A DNA stretch of 14,514 nt, from the IMG/VR virus record IMGVR_UViG_2660238462_000002. One strand, 5' to 3'. The DNA is from a virus (lineage: Duplodnaviria > Heunggongvirae > Uroviricota > Caudoviricetes). This document shows positions 4,756 through 14,514 of this stretch, piece by piece; within the stretch, counting starts at the first letter, position 1; the number at the start of each line of letters is the position of its first letter. The notes under the pieces were generated by a model. It had not been told where the DNA came from. It did not search any database and saw only the letters and a list, made by a program, of their open reading frames with translations. The translations under genes were made by a program, and so were the position numbers.

Positions 4756-4808
4756 GGGCGGCAGAGCAGTCACGGAGTAAAACTGATACCGCCAAACGTC
4801 ACCAGAAA
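4756..4808 (-). ncRNA. dicF: DicF-like small regulatory RNA (about 53 nt) with intrinsic terminator hairpin and U-tract
   Basis: Minus-strand sequence TTTCTGGTGACGTTTGGCGGTATCAGTTTTACTCCGTGACTGCTCTGCCGCCC followed by TTTTT matches recalled DicF. The 3' hairpin GGGCGGCAGAGCAG/CTGCTCTGCCGCCC is followed by the U-run at plus 4751-4755. Context is between ydfC-like and dicB-like genes, as in Qin. Confidence 0.7.
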
Positions 4809-6613: not shown

Positions 6614-6704
6614 GTTTTGATTTTAAAACACAGATGGTTTTGTTTCTTGACTTTCTTTGGTTTTGATTATTAAACTTTTGACGTTCAGTTTTATGGAGCG
6701 ACTC
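6614..6704. promoter_or_regulatory. Immunity region intergenic: divergent pRM/pR-like promoters and operators
   Basis: 91-bp spacer between divergent repressor and Cro-like genes. TTGACT at 6647-6652 followed 15-17 bp later by TATTAA/TTAAAC. Repeated GTTTTGATT motifs at 6614 and 6660. Confidence 0.5.
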
Positions 6705-10304: not shown

Positions 10305-10484
10305 ATGAAAAACGCATTGCAGTTTTTGTTTGTTGCGTTCTGGTTGTTCGTATCATGTATGCCCATCATCTTCACAGCAAGGTATATGGAAAAAGTTGAT
10401 GTTTTGATATTAATATTTGGATATATAAATGCCCTTTTTTTAGGGGTGTTCATGGCGGTCATGTGCATTGAATACTGGCGGTAA
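10305..10484 (+). CDS. Small hydrophobic membrane protein (59 aa, two predicted transmembrane segments) in an AT-rich cassette
   Basis: AGGAGG 4 nt upstream of ATG 10305. Sequence MKNALQFLFVAFWLFVSCMPIIF...ILIFGYINALFLGVFMAVMCI. Local composition is much more AT-rich than its surroundings. Confidence 0.5.
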   Translation: MKNALQFLFVAFWLFVSCMPIIFTARYMEKVDVLILIFGYINALFLGVFMAVMCIEYWR

Positions 10485-10686
10485 ATACAGCGAACGCCAT
10501 TGGTTTAGTTGGATATTTACTGTGCCGGACAAAAACGGTTTGCGGGGAAATCTTAGTTAAGTAGAATGACTGCGGGTGCTTGAGGCTATCTGTCTCAGGC
10601 ATGAACACCAAAAGGCAGATAGAGAAAAGCCCCAGTTAACATTACGCGTCCTGCAAGACGCTTAACATTAATCTGAGGCCATATCT

Positions 10687-10746
10687 ATGCGACACATAGA
10701 GATTAGCCTCTTACGGACCGAAAGGTCAAGGAGAAGCAGGCTATGA
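10687..10746 (+). CDS. Short leader ORF (19 codons) ending at the hok start codon; possible mok-like coupling ORF
   Basis: ATG 10687 with GAGG 9 nt upstream; its TGA stop overlaps the hok ATG (ATGA). Canonical mok is longer and overlaps hok, so this is tentative. Confidence 0.3.
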   Translation: MRHIEISLLRTERSRRSRL

Positions 10747-10898
10747 AGCAGCAAAAGGCGATGTTAATCGCCCTGATCGTCATCTGTTTAACCGTCATAG
10801 TGACGGCACTGGTAACGAGGAAAGACCTCTGCGAGGTACGAATCCGAACCGGCCAGACGGAGGTCGCTGTCTTCACAGCTTACGAACCTGAGGAGTAA
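10743..10898 (+). CDS. hok: Hok/Gef-family type I toxin (51 aa)
   Basis: MKQQKAMLIALIVICLTVIVTALVTRKDLCEVRIRTGQTEVAVFTAYEPEE has the Hok/Gef family signature (transmembrane helix, then RKDLCEV...TEVAVFTAYE) and appears identical or nearly so to HokD/RelF as I recall it. Absent from the ORF track because it is under 60 aa. Confidence 0.85.
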   Translation: MKQQKAMLIALIVICLTVIVTALVTRKDLCEVRIRTGQTEVAVFTAYEPEE

Positions 10899-10966
10899 GA
10901 GACCTGGCGGGGGAGAAATCCCTCGCCACCTCTGATGTGTCAGGCATCCTCAACGCACCCGCACGT

Positions 10967-10993
10967 AACCCGCTTCGGCGGGTTTTGTTTTTT
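10967..10993 (+). terminator. Rho-independent terminator downstream of hok
   Basis: AACCCGC-TTCG-GCGGGTT hairpin followed by TTTGTTTTTT. Confidence 0.8.
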
Positions 10994-11065
10994 CCTGGCA
11001 TTCTGGTTTACAATTCGCACGCCAGCCTGAACAACTGGCACCTGCTGCGCCAGCAGAGACAACCG

Positions 11066-11344
11066 ATGGCGCACGATACCAAATTACACAATTCTAATGA
11101 TTCTGCCGTCTTTGCCAGTAGGTGCGGACGGCGTTTTCACGCATTCAAATCAGACTGGTTCCAGCATCCTCCATGCACTGAAGAGCAGGCGGAATGGATA
11201 ATTCAGTGTTACCGCAGGCGCGGATACGAGGTTAAGAAAGCTCTTAGCCTCGACTACCGTCACTGGATAATCTCAGTCAGACTCCCTTACTCCGAACGCC
11301 CACCGCGTTCATCCCGCACATACCAGCAACGGATCTGGAGGTAA
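11066..11344 (+). CDS. Hypothetical Cys/His-containing protein (92 aa), in the position of Qin rem
   Basis: ATG 11066 is the first start after the hok terminator; the ORF-track start at 10937 would read through that terminator. Stop lies 1 nt before the YdfU-like GTG start. Confidence 0.5.
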   Translation: MAHDTKLHNSNDSAVFASRCGRRFHAFKSDWFQHPPCTEEQAEWIIQCYRRRGYEVKKALSLDYRHWIISVRLPYSERPPRSSRTYQQRIWR

Positions 11345-12461: not shown

Positions 12462-12471
12462 NNNNNNNNNN
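12462..12471. other. Run of 10 ambiguous bases (N): assembly gap or masked sequence
   Basis: Seen directly in the sequence. It separates the prophage Q fragment from the asnB 3' flank. Confidence 0.99.
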
Positions 12472-12802
12472 TCTTTTTTTTCGCGATACCTTATCGGCGT
12501 TGCGGGGCGCATTATGCGTATAGAGCCTTGCAGCGTCAACCTCTTTTTCAAGGAAAATTGCTCGAAAGTGACTGTTTGGTTAGGTTGCGAACAGCGTGGC
12601 GCTATATTCGTCAATTATTGTTTACTTTGTGTTTTTTCCCACCCTACAGCCATTCTTTTGTCATACAGGATGAAATTCGGAATTTAACAATAGTGGTGGG
12701 AAATTAATCTATGAAATACTGGCCTACAGTGATGAGTTGTCAAACAGTGATGTGGCAAACCCGGAACATTTCCTTACTGCATATCAGAATCAACAAGCAC
12801 CT

Positions 12803-12838
12803 CAATAACTGAAACAGCCCCGGATTTCACCGGGGCTG
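12803..12838 (-). terminator. Intrinsic terminator downstream of asnB (hairpin CAGCCCCGG/CCGGGGCTG), possibly bidirectional
   Basis: 9-bp GC-rich inverted repeat at 12815-12838 with T-rich flanks on both strands, 12 bp past the asnB stop. Confidence 0.7.
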
Positions 12839-12849
12839 TTTCGCATTTC

Positions 12850-14514
12850 TTACTTATACGCCGACTGGTGAACACCAACCGCGCGACCAGACGGATCGTC
12901 CATTTTCTTGAACGCTTCATCCCATTCGATCGCTTTAGCGGAAGAACAAGCGACGGAAGGACCGCCCGGCACGCACTCAGCGGCGCTCGGAAGCGGGAAT
13001 AGTTCTTCAAAGATCTCCCGATACAAGTACGCTTCTTTAGAGGTTGGCGTGTTGTACGGGAAGCGGAAGCGGGCAGTTTCCAGTTGCTGATCAGAAACCT
13101 GCTGCGCAGCCACTTCTTTCAGGGTGTCGATCCAACTGTAACCGACGCCATCGGAGAACTGCTCTTTCTGCCGCCAGGCCACGCTTGCAGGCAGATACGC
13201 TTCAAAACATTCACGCAGGATGTGTTTTTCCATTTTGCCGTTACCGCACATTTTATCCTGTGGGTTAATACGCATCGCCACATCAAGGAATTTTTTGTCG
13301 AGGAACGGAACGCGTGCTTCCACGCCCCAGGCTGACATCGCTTTGTTGGCACGCGCGCAGTCATACATATGCAGGGCCAGCAGTTTACGCACCGTCTCTT
13401 CATGCAGTTCTTTGGCATTCGGTGCTTTGTGGAAGTAAAGATAACCGCCGAACACTTCATCAGAACCTTCACCGGACAGCACCATTTTAATGCCCATCGC
13501 CTTGATCTTACGCGACATTAAATACATCGGTGTTGAAGCGCGAATAGTGGTCACATCATAAGTTTCGATGTGGTAAATCACGTCGCGGATGGCATCCAGA
13601 CCTTCCTGTACAGTGAAGTGAATTTCGTGATGCACCGTGCCCAGATGGTTTGCCACTTCCTGGGCTGCTTTCAGATCCGGTGAACCCGGCAGACCTACAG
13701 CAAAGGAGTGTAACTGCGGCCACCAGGCTTCAGAGCGTTCCTGATCTTCCACGCGACGGGCTGCGTATTTCTTGGTGATAGCGGAAATAATTGAGGAATC
13801 CAGACCACCAGAAAGCAGCACACCGTAAGGCACATCAGACATCAGATGGCTTTTAACTGAATCTTCCAGTGCCTGACGCAGCTCGTTTTTGTCGGTCACG
13901 TTATCTTTCACCGCATCGTAGTCGAACCAGTCGCGATGATAGTAAGAACGGATTTCGCCGTCCTGGCTCCACAAATAGCTCCCCGCCGGGAACTCTTTAA
14001 TCGTGCGGCAAACTGGCACCAGCGCTTTCATTTCTGAGGCCACATACAGCTGACCGTGTTCGTCATACCCCATATACAGTGGGATGATCCCCAGATGGTC
14101 GCGACCAATCAGGTAGGCATCTTTTTCGCTGTCGTACAGTGCAAAGGCAAACATGCCCTGCAAGTCGTCGAGAAATTCCGGCCCTTTTTCCTGATACAGC
14201 GCGAGGATCACTTCACAGTCAGACCCGGTCTGGAACTGGTAACGATCGCCATATTCGGCGCGCAATGCCTGGTGGTTGTAGATTTCACCGTTTACCGCCA
14301 GTACGTGGGTTTTTTGTTGGTTGTAGAGAGGTTGCGCCCCCGCGTTAACGTCAACAATTGACAGACGTTCGTGGGCGAGAATGGCGTTATCGCTGGCATA
14401 AATACCGGACCAGTCCGGGCCACGATGACGCATCAGGCGTGACAGCTCGAGGGCTTTCTTACGCAGCTCAACTGCGTCTGTTTTGATATCGAATACGCCA
14501 AAAATTGAACACAT
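12850..14514 (-). CDS. asnB: Asparagine synthetase B (glutamine-hydrolysing), complete 554 aa
   Basis: N-terminal MCSIFGV (class II amidotransferase with Cys2), SGGLDSS PP-loop motif, full-length enterobacterial AsnB sequence. Start codon is at the last three bases of the window. Confidence 0.97.
   Translation of the reverse strand: MCSIFGVFDIKTDAVELRKKALELSRLMRHRGPDWSGIYASDNAILAHERLSIVDVNAGAQPLYNQQKTHVLAVNGEIYNHQALRAEYGDRYQFQTGSDCEVILALYQEKGPEFLDDLQGMFAFALYDSEKDAYLIGRDHLGIIPLYMGYDEHGQLYVASEMKALVPVCRTIKEFPAGSYLWSQDGEIRSYYHRDWFDYDAVKDNVTDKNELRQALEDSVKSHLMSDVPYGVLLSGGLDSSIISAITKKYAARRVEDQERSEAWWPQLHSFAVGLPGSPDLKAAQEVANHLGTVHHEIHFTVQEGLDAIRDVIYHIETYDVTTIRASTPMYLMSRKIKAMGIKMVLSGEGSDEVFGGYLYFHKAPNAKELHEETVRKLLALHMYDCARANKAMSAWGVEARVPFLDKKFLDVAMRINPQDKMCGNGKMEKHILRECFEAYLPASVAWRQKEQFSDGVGYSWIDTLKEVAAQQVSDQQLETARFRFPYNTPTSKEAYLYREIFEELFPLPSAAECVPGGPSVACSSAKAIEWDEAFKKMDDPSGRAVGVHQSAYK

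What the first reader, a model, noticed from the sequence alone, without database searches (positions are those of the whole stretch)
10560..10993. Apparently intact hok-type type I toxin locus with leader ORF, candidate antisense promoter and terminator
The Hok toxin (10743-10898) is preceded by a roughly 180-nt structured leader. It contains a 19-codon ORF (10687-10746) whose stop overlaps the hok ATG (coupling like mok) and, on the opposite strand, a near-consensus promoter (TTGACC, 18 bp, TAATCT; plus coordinates 10724-10729 and 10700-10705) positioned to make a roughly 60-nt antisense RNA across the leader ORF start, as Sok does. A direct repeat TTAACATTA flanks the inverted repeat GCGTC-CTGCAA-GACGC at 10637-10670. 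A strong terminator follows hok. Unlike K-12 hokD, which rides behind relBE, this copy looks autonomous and may be active, for example in abortive infection.
Basis: partly seen in the sequence, partly recalled or inferred. Interest (0 to 1): 0.45.

Follow-up and report, generated by a model that had tools for sequence, protein, structure and literature searches.

The report
Intact prophage hok/sok toxin–antitoxin cassette
This is a complete, already well-known kind of small "host-killing" toxin gene (hokD type) with its antisense RNA antidote, carried as a self-contained cassette in an E. coli lambda-like prophage; it is ordinary, and a near-identical cassette (hokW-sokW) has been studied experimentally.

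Summary

- **Toxin:** the 51-aa ORF (10743-10898) is Hok/Gef (Pfam E 1e-23; PHROG "MokW-like host killing"). RefSeq annotates the identical DNA as hokD.
- **Leader:** it matches Rfam sok (RF01794) end to end, at 106.7 bits.
- **Regulatory elements:** all canonical ones can be placed: tac/fbi end-pairing, metastable 5' hairpin, ucb, mok Shine-Dalgarno (SD) site/dcb target hairpin, 3' protective hairpin and terminator.
- **Sok:** its promoter sits at the position homologous to the R1 Sok promoter and to the mutationally tested sokW -10.
- **K-12 comparison:**

Corrections:
- The Sok promoter matches 8 of 12 consensus positions, so it is not near-consensus.
- Sok is predicted at about 70 nt, not 60.
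- The "direct repeat" forms the arms of the Sok hairpin.

The 19-codon leader ORF ending in AUGA is a recurrent natural variant. About 780 complete E. coli genomes have a ≥99% match to this allele segment, and 8 of 66 diverse hok loci have the same layout. R1 data show that mok translation up to the hok start is enough.

The abortive-infection idea is untested. The closest studied relative, hokW-sokW, aids lysis on prophage induction.

Already known; low interest.

The parts
10540..10567 (+). Candidate hok promoter: TTGCGG (10540-10545), 16-nt spacer, TAGAAT (10562-10567)
   Evidence: Read from the sequence. The -10 TAGAAT lies at the same distance from the GGGTGCTTGAGG start in hokW and other relatives and aligns with the R1 -10 region. 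The -35 matches only 3/6, so the consensus scan does not report it. Inferred, not shown.
10574..10992 (+). Full-length hok mRNA: inferred +1 at G10574, 3' end in the T run after the terminator
   Evidence: The Rfam sok model starts at 10574. The MFE is -175 kcal/mol, z = -8.2 against shuffles. 52 distinct relatives are collinear over this span.
10574..10585 (+). tac element (GGGUGCUUGAGG) at the mRNA 5' end
   Evidence: It pairs with 10948-10960 in the full-length MFE. The helix is kept in 52/52 relatives. Alone it forms an 11-bp metastable hairpin with 10592-10602 (-16.9 kcal/mol). With 67 nt available it pairs with ucb. The R1 5' end folds the same way.
10586..10622 (+). 5' stem-loop (CUAUCUGUCUC...GGCAGAUAG)
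   Evidence: Seen in the MFE. One pair shows A-U to G-C double changes in 4 relatives. It corresponds to Rfam helix 1.
10627..10635 (+). ucb (anti-SD), AAGCCCCAG
   Evidence: It pairs with the leader-ORF SD (CUGAGGC) in the full-length fold (helix 4). It pairs with tac in the 67-nt fold. The element is defined for R1 in PMC9841398.
10622..10697 (-). Predicted Sok antisense RNA, about 68-76 nt: single-stranded 5' tail, then a long hairpin, then UUUUCUC
   Evidence: The 72-nt stretch folds at -29.8 kcal/mol, z = -5.7. It is complementary to the leader-ORF start, its SD and ucb. No transcript evidence is available here.
10700..10729 (-). Candidate Sok promoter: TTGACC (10729-10724), 18-nt spacer, TAATCT (10705-10700)
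   Evidence: Sequence. It aligns column for column with R1 TTGCGC/TATCCT. It also aligns with the hokW TTGCCT/TAACCT region, whose -10 was mutated in the promoter-less construct of PMC8621323. It matches 8/12 and the consensus scan does not report it.
10675..10678 (+). SD (GAGG) of the leader ORF
   Evidence: It lies 8 nt upstream of ATG 10687 and is invariant in 52 relatives. It is homologous to the R1 mok SD GAGG.
10687..10746 (+). mok-equivalent leader ORF: 19 codons, UGA stop overlapping the hok AUG (AUGA)
   Evidence: There is no start codon in the R1-like mok frame, which is closed by TAG at 10697-10699, and none in frame with hok (TAG at 10704-10706). This is read directly. The same layout occurs in 13 of 83 hokD loci and in 8 of 66 diverse hok loci.
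10679..10702 (+). Hypervariable patch: inner target hairpin holding the leader ATG, complementary to the Sok 5' tail
   Evidence: Nucleotide diversity is 0.27 here against 0.035 elsewhere. There are 16 alleles among 52 mRNAs. All 16 alleles fold into the same two-tier hairpin, as does R1.
10706..10710 (+). dcb (GCCUC), the partner of the leader-ORF SD in the open/target hairpin
   Evidence: Outer stem AGGC/GCCU is present in 16/16 alleles and in R1. The element is named in PMC9841398.
10728..10733 (+). hok SD (AAGGAG)
   Evidence: It lies inside the leader ORF and inside the K-12-shared block.
10743..10898 (+). hokD-type toxin gene, 51 aa
   Evidence: It is 42% identical to R1 Hok, identical in sequence to the K-12 hokD coding region, and differs from HokW only in the last 7 residues.
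10906..10927 (+). 3' UTR stem-loop (GGCGGGGGAG-AAAU-CCCUCGCC), the likely 3' end of the processed active mRNA
   Evidence: MFE helix 16. Wobble and one-sided changes keep the pairing. The role is inferred from R1 (PMC9841398).
10948..10960 (+). fbi element (CCUCAACGCACCC), which pairs with tac
   Evidence: helix 1: 12 pairs, 100% of cells paired.
10967..10993 (+). Intrinsic terminator
   Evidence: 7-bp stem with 5 G-C pairs, then TTGTTTTTTC.

Best explanation
[quoted passage not shown] It is a self-contained module with its own promoter and terminator, and it sits between the replication genes and the DUF968/nin genes of a Qin/Rac-like lambdoid prophage of E. coli.

Proposed mechanism, taken from the R1 paradigm and mapped onto this sequence:
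1. hok mRNA starts near G10574. While nascent, its 5' tac element is held in a metastable hairpin.
2. In the full-length RNA, tac (10574-10585) pairs with fbi (10948-10960), and ucb (10627-10635) masks the leader-ORF SD (10675-10678). The RNA can then neither be translated nor bound by Sok.
3. Slow 3' trimming back to the 10906-10927 hairpin removes fbi. tac then pairs with ucb, and the SD is displayed in the SD/dcb target hairpin.
4. A ~70-nt unstable Sok RNA is made from the minus-strand promoter at 10729-10700. It pairs through its 5' tail with that hairpin (10679-10702) and onward over the SD, which blocks the leader ORF and marks the duplex for RNase III.
5. When Sok supply stops, ribosomes translate the 19-codon leader ORF across the hok SD (10728-10733). 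They terminate at the UGA of AUGA and start at the hok AUG.
6. The 51-aa Hok inserts into the inner membrane and collapses it.

Biological role: by analogy with hokW-sokW, the most likely role is a prophage-borne killing/lysis aid triggered when the prophage is induced or transcription is shut off. Prophage stabilisation or phage exclusion remain possible.

Shown here: family membership of the toxin and leader, presence and position of every element, and the predicted folds. Inferred: transcripts, RNA processing, translational coupling, toxicity and the biological role.
For: Family and identity:
- Pfam HOK_GEF 82.9 bits.
- PHROG 251 'MokW-like host killing', E 3e-33.
- Rfam sok 106.7 bits, full length.
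- Identical DNA is annotated hokD in RefSeq genomes; 2,792 of 5,426 complete E. coli genomes hold at least 80% of the cassette.

Predicted folds:
- tac/fbi 12-bp helix in the MFE, z = -8.2, kept in 52/52 relatives.
- Metastable hairpin and tac/ucb stem, mirrored by R1.
- SD/dcb two-tier target hairpin in all 16 alleles and in R1.
- Sok hairpin plus U tract, z = -5.7.

Sok promoter: it is homologous in position to R1 Psok and to the sokW -10 that was inactivated experimentally.

Closest studied relative: hokW-sokW is about 92.5% identical in DNA. It was shown to be a toxic Hok with a Sok antidote, induced by mitomycin C in a RecA-dependent way.

Leader ORF:
- R1 mutagenesis shows that mok translation up to the hok initiation region is necessary and that translation beyond the hok start is dispensable (PMC9841398).
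- The 19-codon layout recurs in 8 distinct lineages, each with a full Rfam sok match.
- 783 E. coli genome records have a best match of ≥99% identity to the 70-nt allele segment.

Cassette limits: homology to other prophages starts at 10527-10562 and ends at 10986-10993.
Against: - Nothing here shows transcription, processing or toxicity of this copy.
- Both promoters are weak by consensus: neither passes the 9/12 scan.
- The MFE of the 3'-trimmed RNA (10574-10930) keeps the metastable hairpin rather than the tac/ucb stem, so the open form is not the predicted ground state.
- Covariation among relatives is thin because they are 97% identical: 5 pairs carry double changes.
- Chromosomal hokA, hokB and hokC loci were reported not to mediate post-segregational killing or to respond to rifampicin (cited in bioRxiv 10.1101/2025.08.07.668861).
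- No PADLOC defence model matches.
Confidence: 0.85

Rival explanations
1. The cassette is structurally intact but physiologically silent. It would be a selfish or neutral passenger in which Sok permanently outcompetes a poorly expressed hok mRNA, giving no killing, no stabilisation and no role in induction.
For: [quoted passage not shown]
- The hok promoter -35 matches only 3/6.
- No defence-system model matches.
Against: - Every regulatory element is kept in dozens of mosaic contexts, and 80 fetched IMG/VR loci encode an identical Hok protein.
- The sister cassette hokW-sokW produces HokW and affects lysis and phage yield from its native prophage (PMC8621323).
- There is no IS insertion or truncation of the kind seen in K-12.
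Confidence: 0.25
2. The 19-codon leader ORF is a frameshifted, attenuated mok. Relative to sister alleles, two bases are missing in the target-hairpin loop, or one extra T is present at 10726. Stopping at the hok AUG would weaken or abolish Hok translation and make this allele a hypomorph.
For: - Among 83 loci that encode the identical toxin, 66 have the leader ATG in frame with hok (a 70-aa product) and one has the R1-like 68-codon overlapping frame.
- The 13 loci with the window layout all share a single leader sequence.
Against: - In R1, stop codons in mok downstream of the hok start do not affect Hok. Only translation up to the hok SD/start is needed (PMC9841398).
- The leader ORF here still crosses the hok SD.
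- The same AUGA layout occurs in 8 different sequences from Escherichia ruysiae, E. whittamii, Pseudocitrobacter, Erwinia, Kalamiella and others, all with full Rfam matches.
- 783 E. coli genome records have a best match of ≥99% identity to the 70-nt allele segment.
- AUGA overlaps are a classic termination-reinitiation coupling signal (general knowledge).
Confidence: 0.12
3. It acts chiefly as an abortive-infection or phage-exclusion module. Shutoff of host transcription by a superinfecting lytic phage would deplete Sok and release Hok before the phage completes its cycle.
For: R1 hok/sok on a high-copy plasmid reduced T4 plating by 42% and reduced plaque size, as quoted in PMC8621323. Prophages often carry defence genes.
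Against: - No PADLOC model matches.
- hok genes are not enriched near defence systems (bioRxiv 10.1101/2025.08.07.668861, outline and discussion passage).
- The nearest studied relative promotes release of its own phage rather than blocking other phages.
Confidence: 0.15

Closest known systems
hokW-sokW of Sakai prophage 5 / Stx2-converting phages (Takada et al. 2021, PMC8621323)
   Same: - Same cassette, with a similar position in a lambdoid phage genome (an early region upstream of nin-type genes). About 92.5% DNA identity over 10555-10962.
- All six published primers and probes match the homologous locus L085.
- Same tac, stem-loops, ucb, SD, dcb, hok SD and fbi.
- The toxin is identical except for the last 7 residues.
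   Different: - The hokW leader ATG is 57 nt upstream and in frame with hok (70-aa 'MokW'). Here it is 56 nt upstream, giving a 19-codon ORF that stops in AUGA.
- The Sok promoter hexamers differ: TTGCCT-17-TAACCT against TTGACC-18-TAATCT.
- The ~24-nt Sok-tail/target patch is a different allele.
- The hokW copy in L085 lacks this terminator sequence.
hok/sok (parB) of plasmid R1, the family archetype
   Same: - Architecture matches element by element (alignment A1). Rfam model 1-157 is matched in full.
- The tac/ucb stem and the SD/dcb target hairpin fold alike.
- The Sok promoter is at the homologous position.
- Toxin 42% identical.
   Different: - R1 mok is a 70-codon frame that overlaps hok (ATG 58 nt upstream).
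- R1 Sok lacks the 16-nt GC-rich hairpin tip.
- R1 is carried on a plasmid with a proven post-segregational killing role; this copy is on a prophage.
E. coli K-12 hokD (relF) in the Qin prophage, behind relBE
   Same: Identical coding sequence and near-identical 3' UTR, including fbi and the terminator. Similar prophage neighbourhood (DicF, dicB, ydfU/DUF968).
   Different: In K-12, homology stops about 16 nt upstream of the ATG. There is no tac, ucb, leader ORF or Sok, and the gene is co-transcribed with relBE (PMC3598666). The window copy has the complete leader and no relBE.
HokC-type chromosomal loci (gef/mokC kind)
   Same: Same Rfam leader (L103: 118 bits; L102 and L104: 112-116 bits). 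The toxin is about 80% identical.
   Different: Most HokC-type loci have a 69-aa leader ORF in frame with hok. Those of E. ruysiae and E. whittamii have the 19-codon AUGA form seen here. Calling these proteins HokC rests on my memory of the K-12 sequence, not on a tool result.

Membership tests
[quoted passage not shown] | Toxin of about 50 aa in the Hok/Gef family (N-terminal membrane helix, conserved TRK-LCE core) | tested here: met
   Pfam PF01848 82.9 bits against a cutoff of 22. PHROG 251, E 2.8e-33. 42% identity to R1 Hok.
[quoted passage not shown] | Conserved structured 5' leader of about 160-175 nt (Rfam RF01794) | tested here: met
   106.7 bits against a gathering score of 59, E 7e-24, model 1-157 not truncated.
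[quoted passage not shown] | Long-range tac (5' end) / fbi (3' end) pairing that closes the full-length mRNA | tested here: met
   12-bp helix, 10574-10585 with 10948-10960, in the MFE; z = -8.2. 100% paired in 52 relatives. This is a prediction only; no probing data.
[quoted passage not shown] | Leader ORF (mok) with its own SD, whose translation runs into the hok initiation region | tested here: met
   SD GAGG at 10675-10678; ORF 10687-10746 crosses the hok SD (10728-10733) and stops in AUGA. The geometry differs from the 70-codon mok of R1. R1 data say that translation up to the hok start is enough. Coupling itself was not tested.
[quoted passage not shown] | Switch elements: metastable 5' hairpin, ucb masking the mok SD, and the alternative tac/ucb and SD/dcb pairings | tested here: inconclusive
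   All the pairings exist and form in sub-fragments, as in R1. However, the MFE of the 3'-trimmed RNA keeps the metastable hairpin instead of tac/ucb.
[quoted passage not shown] | cis-encoded antisense Sok RNA: promoter inside the leader ORF on the opposite strand, 5' tail over the mok start region, terminator hairpin | tested here: inconclusive
   The promoter matches 8/12, at the position homologous to R1 Psok and to the tested sokW -10. Hairpin plus U tract, z = -5.7. No transcript data can be obtained with these tools.
[quoted passage not shown] | 3' exonucleolytic processing to an active truncated mRNA, and RNase III cleavage of the Sok duplex | not testable with these tools
   Only the candidate protective hairpin at 10906-10927 can be pointed to.
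[quoted passage not shown] | Toxicity of Hok and neutralisation by Sok | not testable with these tools
   Shown for HokW/sokW (44 of 51 residues identical) in PMC8621323, not for this copy.
K-12-type relBE-hokD (relBEF) arrangement | hokD lies directly behind relE, lacks the hok leader and Sok, and is co-transcribed with relBE | tested here: not met
   The window has a full leader. The upstream ORFs have no Pfam hit. The K-12 alignment diverges about 16 nt upstream of the ATG.
hokW-sokW subgroup (lambdoid-prophage cassettes) | The same cassette (>90% DNA identity) in the early-right/nin region of a lambdoid (pro)phage | tested here: met
   92.5% identity to Stx phage copies. Context: replication genes, then hok, then DUF968-RusA-Q. 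74 phage records hold at least 80% of it.

The most novel reading that the evidence does not exclude
The only strongly variable stretch of the cassette is the ~24-nt patch at 10679-10702. This is the inner target hairpin that holds the leader ATG, and it is complementary to the Sok 5' tail. It exists in at least 16 alleles that all keep the same fold, while the toxin and the rest of the RNA stay almost invariant.

This could reflect diversifying selection for mutually orthogonal Sok specificities among the several prophage hok/sok cassettes that co-reside in one E. coli genome. Each prophage's antidote would then protect only against its own toxin.

The free choice of leader-ORF frame fits with this. 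The three layouts are in frame with hok, +1 overlapping, and 19 codons ending in AUGA. That suggests only ribosome transit into the hok start matters, not any Mok peptide.

A linked idea: the cassette is co-oriented with the early-right operon, and no plus-strand terminator was found upstream of it. Read-through from the prophage early promoter on induction may therefore silence the convergent Sok promoter. That would explain the unexplained RecA-dependent loss of sokW.
Probability: 0.35. Interest if true: 0.4.

Novelty: already known. Interest (0 to 1): 0.15.

Why it matters
It matters little as a discovery. The hok/sok family is a textbook system, the identical sequence is annotated as hokD in public genomes, and a 92%-identical prophage cassette has been characterised.

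The useful points are practical:
- **Reference for K-12 hokD:** this is the intact ancestral form of the truncated K-12 hokD, so it is the right sequence for asking what hokD does in wild E. coli.
- **Natural test of mok coupling:** the cassette occurs in three leader-ORF layouts and many Sok-target alleles. Together they form a ready-made natural mutant series for testing mok-hok coupling and Sok specificity.
- **Possible trigger:** its orientation within the early-right operon suggests a testable trigger, read-through interference with the Sok promoter, for toxin release on prophage induction.

Tried and rejected
- **Consensus promoter scan of 10400-11100:** it reports neither promoter, so promoter strength cannot be argued from score. 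I relied on homologous position instead.
- **Covariation on 52 relatives:** the signal is weak because the sequences are 97% identical. It does not independently prove the structure.
- **Folding the 3'-trimmed mRNA to show the open conformation:** the MFE kept the metastable hairpin. Only sub-fragment folds show tac/ucb.
- **A truncated prophage remnant next to asnB:** rejected. Positions 12462-12471 are a run of 10 N, which is a scaffold join, and no complete E. coli genome has that junction.
- **Co-resident copies always carry different Sok-target alleles:** three genomes have all-different alleles and one has identical alleles. That is too few to test, and all-different is expected often by chance with 16 alleles.
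- **PADLOC search for a defence-system assignment:** no hit.
- **Literature search for mokA/B/C/E:** it returned only Monascus papers.
- **dN/dS on the toxin:** not attempted, because the IMG/VR loci were selected for 100% protein identity.
- **Chance ORF or chance promoter:** rejected given the Rfam and Pfam E-values near 1e-23.
Full report
**What is in the sequence**

- The region holds a 51-aa ORF at 10743-10898. It is a Hok/Gef toxin: Pfam PF01848 at 82.9 bits, E 1.2e-23, and PHROG 251 'MokW-like host killing', E 2.8e-33.
- Rfam's sok family (RF01794, which models the hok leader strand) matches the plus strand from 10574 to the hok ATG. The score is 106.7 bits against a gathering score of 59, over the full model.
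- The minus-strand hexamers TTGACC and TAATCT, 18 nt apart, are exact.
- The terminator at 10967-10984 is confirmed.
- The promoter is not near-consensus. It matches 8 of 12 positions and a 9/12 scan reports nothing in 10400-11100.
- The 'direct repeat' TTAACATTA (10636-10644 and 10662-10670) and the GCGTC/GACGC inverted repeat together form one long hairpin. It is the Sok terminator hairpin on the minus strand and the ucb/SD helix on the plus strand.
- The GC-rich tip of that hairpin is a 16-nt insertion relative to the Rfam consensus.

**Where it comes from**

- The 551 bases around the locus are 100% identical to three complete E. coli chromosomes, where RefSeq annotates hokD.
- 2,792 of 5,426 complete E. 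coli genomes hold at least 80% of the cassette, with a median of 2 and up to 11 places per genome.
- The neighbourhood is a Qin/Rac-like lambdoid prophage: integrase, exonuclease, dicB, DicF, repressor, cro, YdaT, a replisome organizer, then hok, then DUF968, RusA and Q.
- 74 phage genome records also carry most of the cassette, including Stx-converting phages.
- Homology blocks shared with other prophages begin at 10527-10562 and end at 10986-10993. The unit is therefore a discrete mosaic cassette, bounded by its own promoter and terminator.
- The asnB gene at the right end of the window is not truly adjacent. Positions 12462-12471 are ten N, a scaffold join, and no complete genome has that junction.

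**Anatomy against the R1 paradigm**

I checked my recollection of the R1 hok sequence against the plasmid collection; it matched 100%. I then aligned it with the window, K-12 hokD, a hokW-type locus and two other relatives.

- **Conserved blocks shared with R1:** the 5' GC-UUGAGGCU (tac), the GGCAGA-AG arm, AGCCCC (ucb), GAGGC (leader SD), the leader ATG, AGCCUCUUAC (dcb), and CAAGGAGAAG-AGGC-AUGAA (hok SD and start).
- **Full-length fold:** the 419-nt transcript pairs 10574-10585 with 10948-10960 (tac/fbi). The MFE is -175 kcal/mol, z = -8.2. That helix is intact in 52 of 52 distinct relatives.
- **Metastable hairpin:** the first 32 nt form an 11-bp hairpin (-16.9 kcal/mol).
- **tac/ucb stem:** the first 67 nt form a tac/ucb stem around the first stem-loop, exactly as the R1 5' end does.
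- **Target hairpin:** the leader SD pairs with GCCUC (dcb) around an inner hairpin that holds the leader ATG. All 16 alleles examined and R1 share this fold.
- **Element definitions:** these elements and their roles are as summarised for R1 in PMC9841398.
- **One prediction does not fit neatly:** the MFE of the RNA trimmed to 10930 keeps the metastable hairpin rather than tac/ucb.
- **Limits of covariation:** support is limited to 5 pairs with double changes, because the relatives are 97% identical.

**The antisense gene**

- The candidate Sok promoter aligns with R1's TTGCGC/TATCCT.
- It also aligns with the region of hokW whose -10 was mutated to make the promoter-less construct that unmasked HokW toxicity (PMC8621323). 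All six primers and probes of that paper map onto the homologous locus L085.
- A start at 10693-10697 and the U tract after the hairpin give an RNA of about 68-76 nt. It folds at -29.8 kcal/mol, z = -5.7.
- It covers the leader ATG, its SD and ucb. No transcript evidence can be obtained here.

**The leader ORF**

- In this allele neither the R1-like mok frame nor the hok frame has a start codon upstream. TAG codons at 10697-10699 and 10704-10706 close them (read). The 19-codon ORF is therefore the only mok equivalent.
- I examined 83 loci that encode the identical toxin:
  - in 66 the leader ATG is 57 nt upstream, in frame with hok, giving a 70-aa 'MokW' product;
  - in 13 it is 56 nt upstream, which is the window layout, and all 13 share one sequence;
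  - in 1 it is 58 nt upstream, the R1-like 68-codon overlapping frame;
  - 3 lack the leader altogether, which is the K-12 relBE type.
- 783 complete-genome records have a best match of ≥99% identity to the window's 70-nt allele segment.
- I also surveyed 66 scorable hok loci from a collection with one genome per species:
  - 36 are in frame with hok;
  - 22 are +1 overlapping;
  - 8 have the short ORF ending in AUGA.
- Those 8 are all different sequences, from Escherichia ruysiae, E. whittamii, Pseudocitrobacter, Erwinia, Kalamiella and others. Each has a full Rfam match of 103-133 bits.
- Because Hok begins Met-Lys (AUG AAR), any leader ORF in the -1 frame must stop at that UGA.
- R1 mutagenesis shows that mok must be translated up to the hok initiation region and that translation beyond the hok start is dispensable (PMC9841398). 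The short ORF is therefore a recurrent, probably fully competent variant rather than a defect.

**Comparison with K-12**

- K-12 hokD lies behind relBE and is co-transcribed with them (PMC3598666).
- Its similarity to the window starts only about 16 nt before the ATG. It continues through the coding region, fbi and the terminator.

**Function**

- The mechanism given in the best explanation is the R1 mechanism mapped onto these coordinates. What is shown here is membership, element positions and predicted folds. The RNAs, processing, coupling and toxicity are inferred.
- For the biological role, the best guide is hokW-sokW. It is about 92.5% identical in DNA, and its toxin differs only in the last 7 residues.
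- In that system HokW is toxic and sokW counteracts it. Mitomycin C removes sokW and induces HokW in a RecA-dependent way, and deleting the locus halves phage release.
- Abortive infection remains speculation. PADLOC has no matching model, and hok genes are reported as not enriched near defence systems.

**Extra observations**

- Within the otherwise conserved cassette, nucleotide diversity at 10679-10702 is 0.27 against 0.035 elsewhere. There are 16 alleles among 52 mRNAs.
- This patch is the inner target hairpin and is complementary to the Sok 5' tail.
- Predicted duplexes over the first 22 nt average -42 kcal/mol for cognate pairs and -24 kcal/mol for non-cognate pairs.
- This could mean selection for orthogonal Sok specificities among co-resident cassettes. 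My within-genome sample is too small to test that.
- The cassette is co-oriented with the early-right operon. No plus-strand terminator was found between the cro-proximal promoter-like site (6647-6676) and the hok terminator. Read-through on induction could therefore interfere with the convergent Sok promoter. This is a hypothesis only.

**Verdict**

The finding is real and correctly interpreted, but it is a known system in a known place. I rate it as already known, with interest about 0.15.

Noticed in passing
window 12462-12471 and 12472-14514: A run of ten N joins the prophage contig to an asnB (asparagine synthase B) chromosomal segment. That segment is 100% identical to K-12. No complete E. 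coli genome has this junction, so the prophage/asnB adjacency is a scaffolding join and not real sequence.
   Followed up: yes
window 4756-4807 (-): A full-length DicF sRNA gene (Rfam RF00039, 76.7 bits). It lies in the dicB/ydfABC region of the same prophage.
   Followed up: no
window 10679-10702: This ~24-nt patch (leader ATG hairpin, complementary to the Sok 5' tail) is about 8 times more variable than the rest of the cassette. It has 16 alleles, and all of them keep the same two-tier hairpin.
   Followed up: partly
L003-L165 (hok leaders); window 10687-10746: Across hok loci the leader ORF occurs in three layouts: in frame with hok (N-extended toxin), +1 overlapping as in R1, and a 19-20 codon ORF ending in AUGA. 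In the genome survey the counts are 36, 22 and 8 of 66. The Met-Lys start of Hok forces the UGA stop in the third layout.
   Followed up: yes
window 10881-10884: The Tyr47 codon UAC is followed by G, giving the UACG context described for TadA A-to-I editing that recodes Tyr to Cys in hok mRNAs. The bioRxiv paper 10.1101/2025.08.07.668861 mentions hokD among them.
   Followed up: no
window 10527-10562 and 10986-10993: Homology with many other prophages starts and stops at these points while the flanks differ. The hok/sok unit therefore behaves as a mobile mosaic ('moron'-like) cassette.
   Followed up: partly
L138 150-297, L154 262-289: In Erwinia sp. CGal63 and Kalamiella sp., a full hok/sok leader (131-133 bits) lies roughly 100 nt downstream of CRISPR-DR4 repeats. 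A hok/sok locus thus abuts a CRISPR array.
   Followed up: no
L095, L105, L111, L143-L145: Hok loci that are identical or nearly identical to E. coli or plasmid versions appear in assemblies labelled Veillonella, Acinetobacter, Xanthomonas, Ferruginibacter, Streptomyces and Oscillibacter. The contigs are mostly short (under about 5 kb), apart from a 23-kb Veillonella MAG scaffold. This is most likely contamination by enterobacterial or plasmid DNA.
   Followed up: no
L089, L094, L110, L114, L158, L161: The leaderless K-12-type junction (…TTGCGTTGACAGGAG… directly upstream of hok) recurs in E. coli, Shigella, Kluyvera and other Enterobacteriaceae. The relBE-hokD fusion is therefore old and widespread, not peculiar to K-12.
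   Followed up: no
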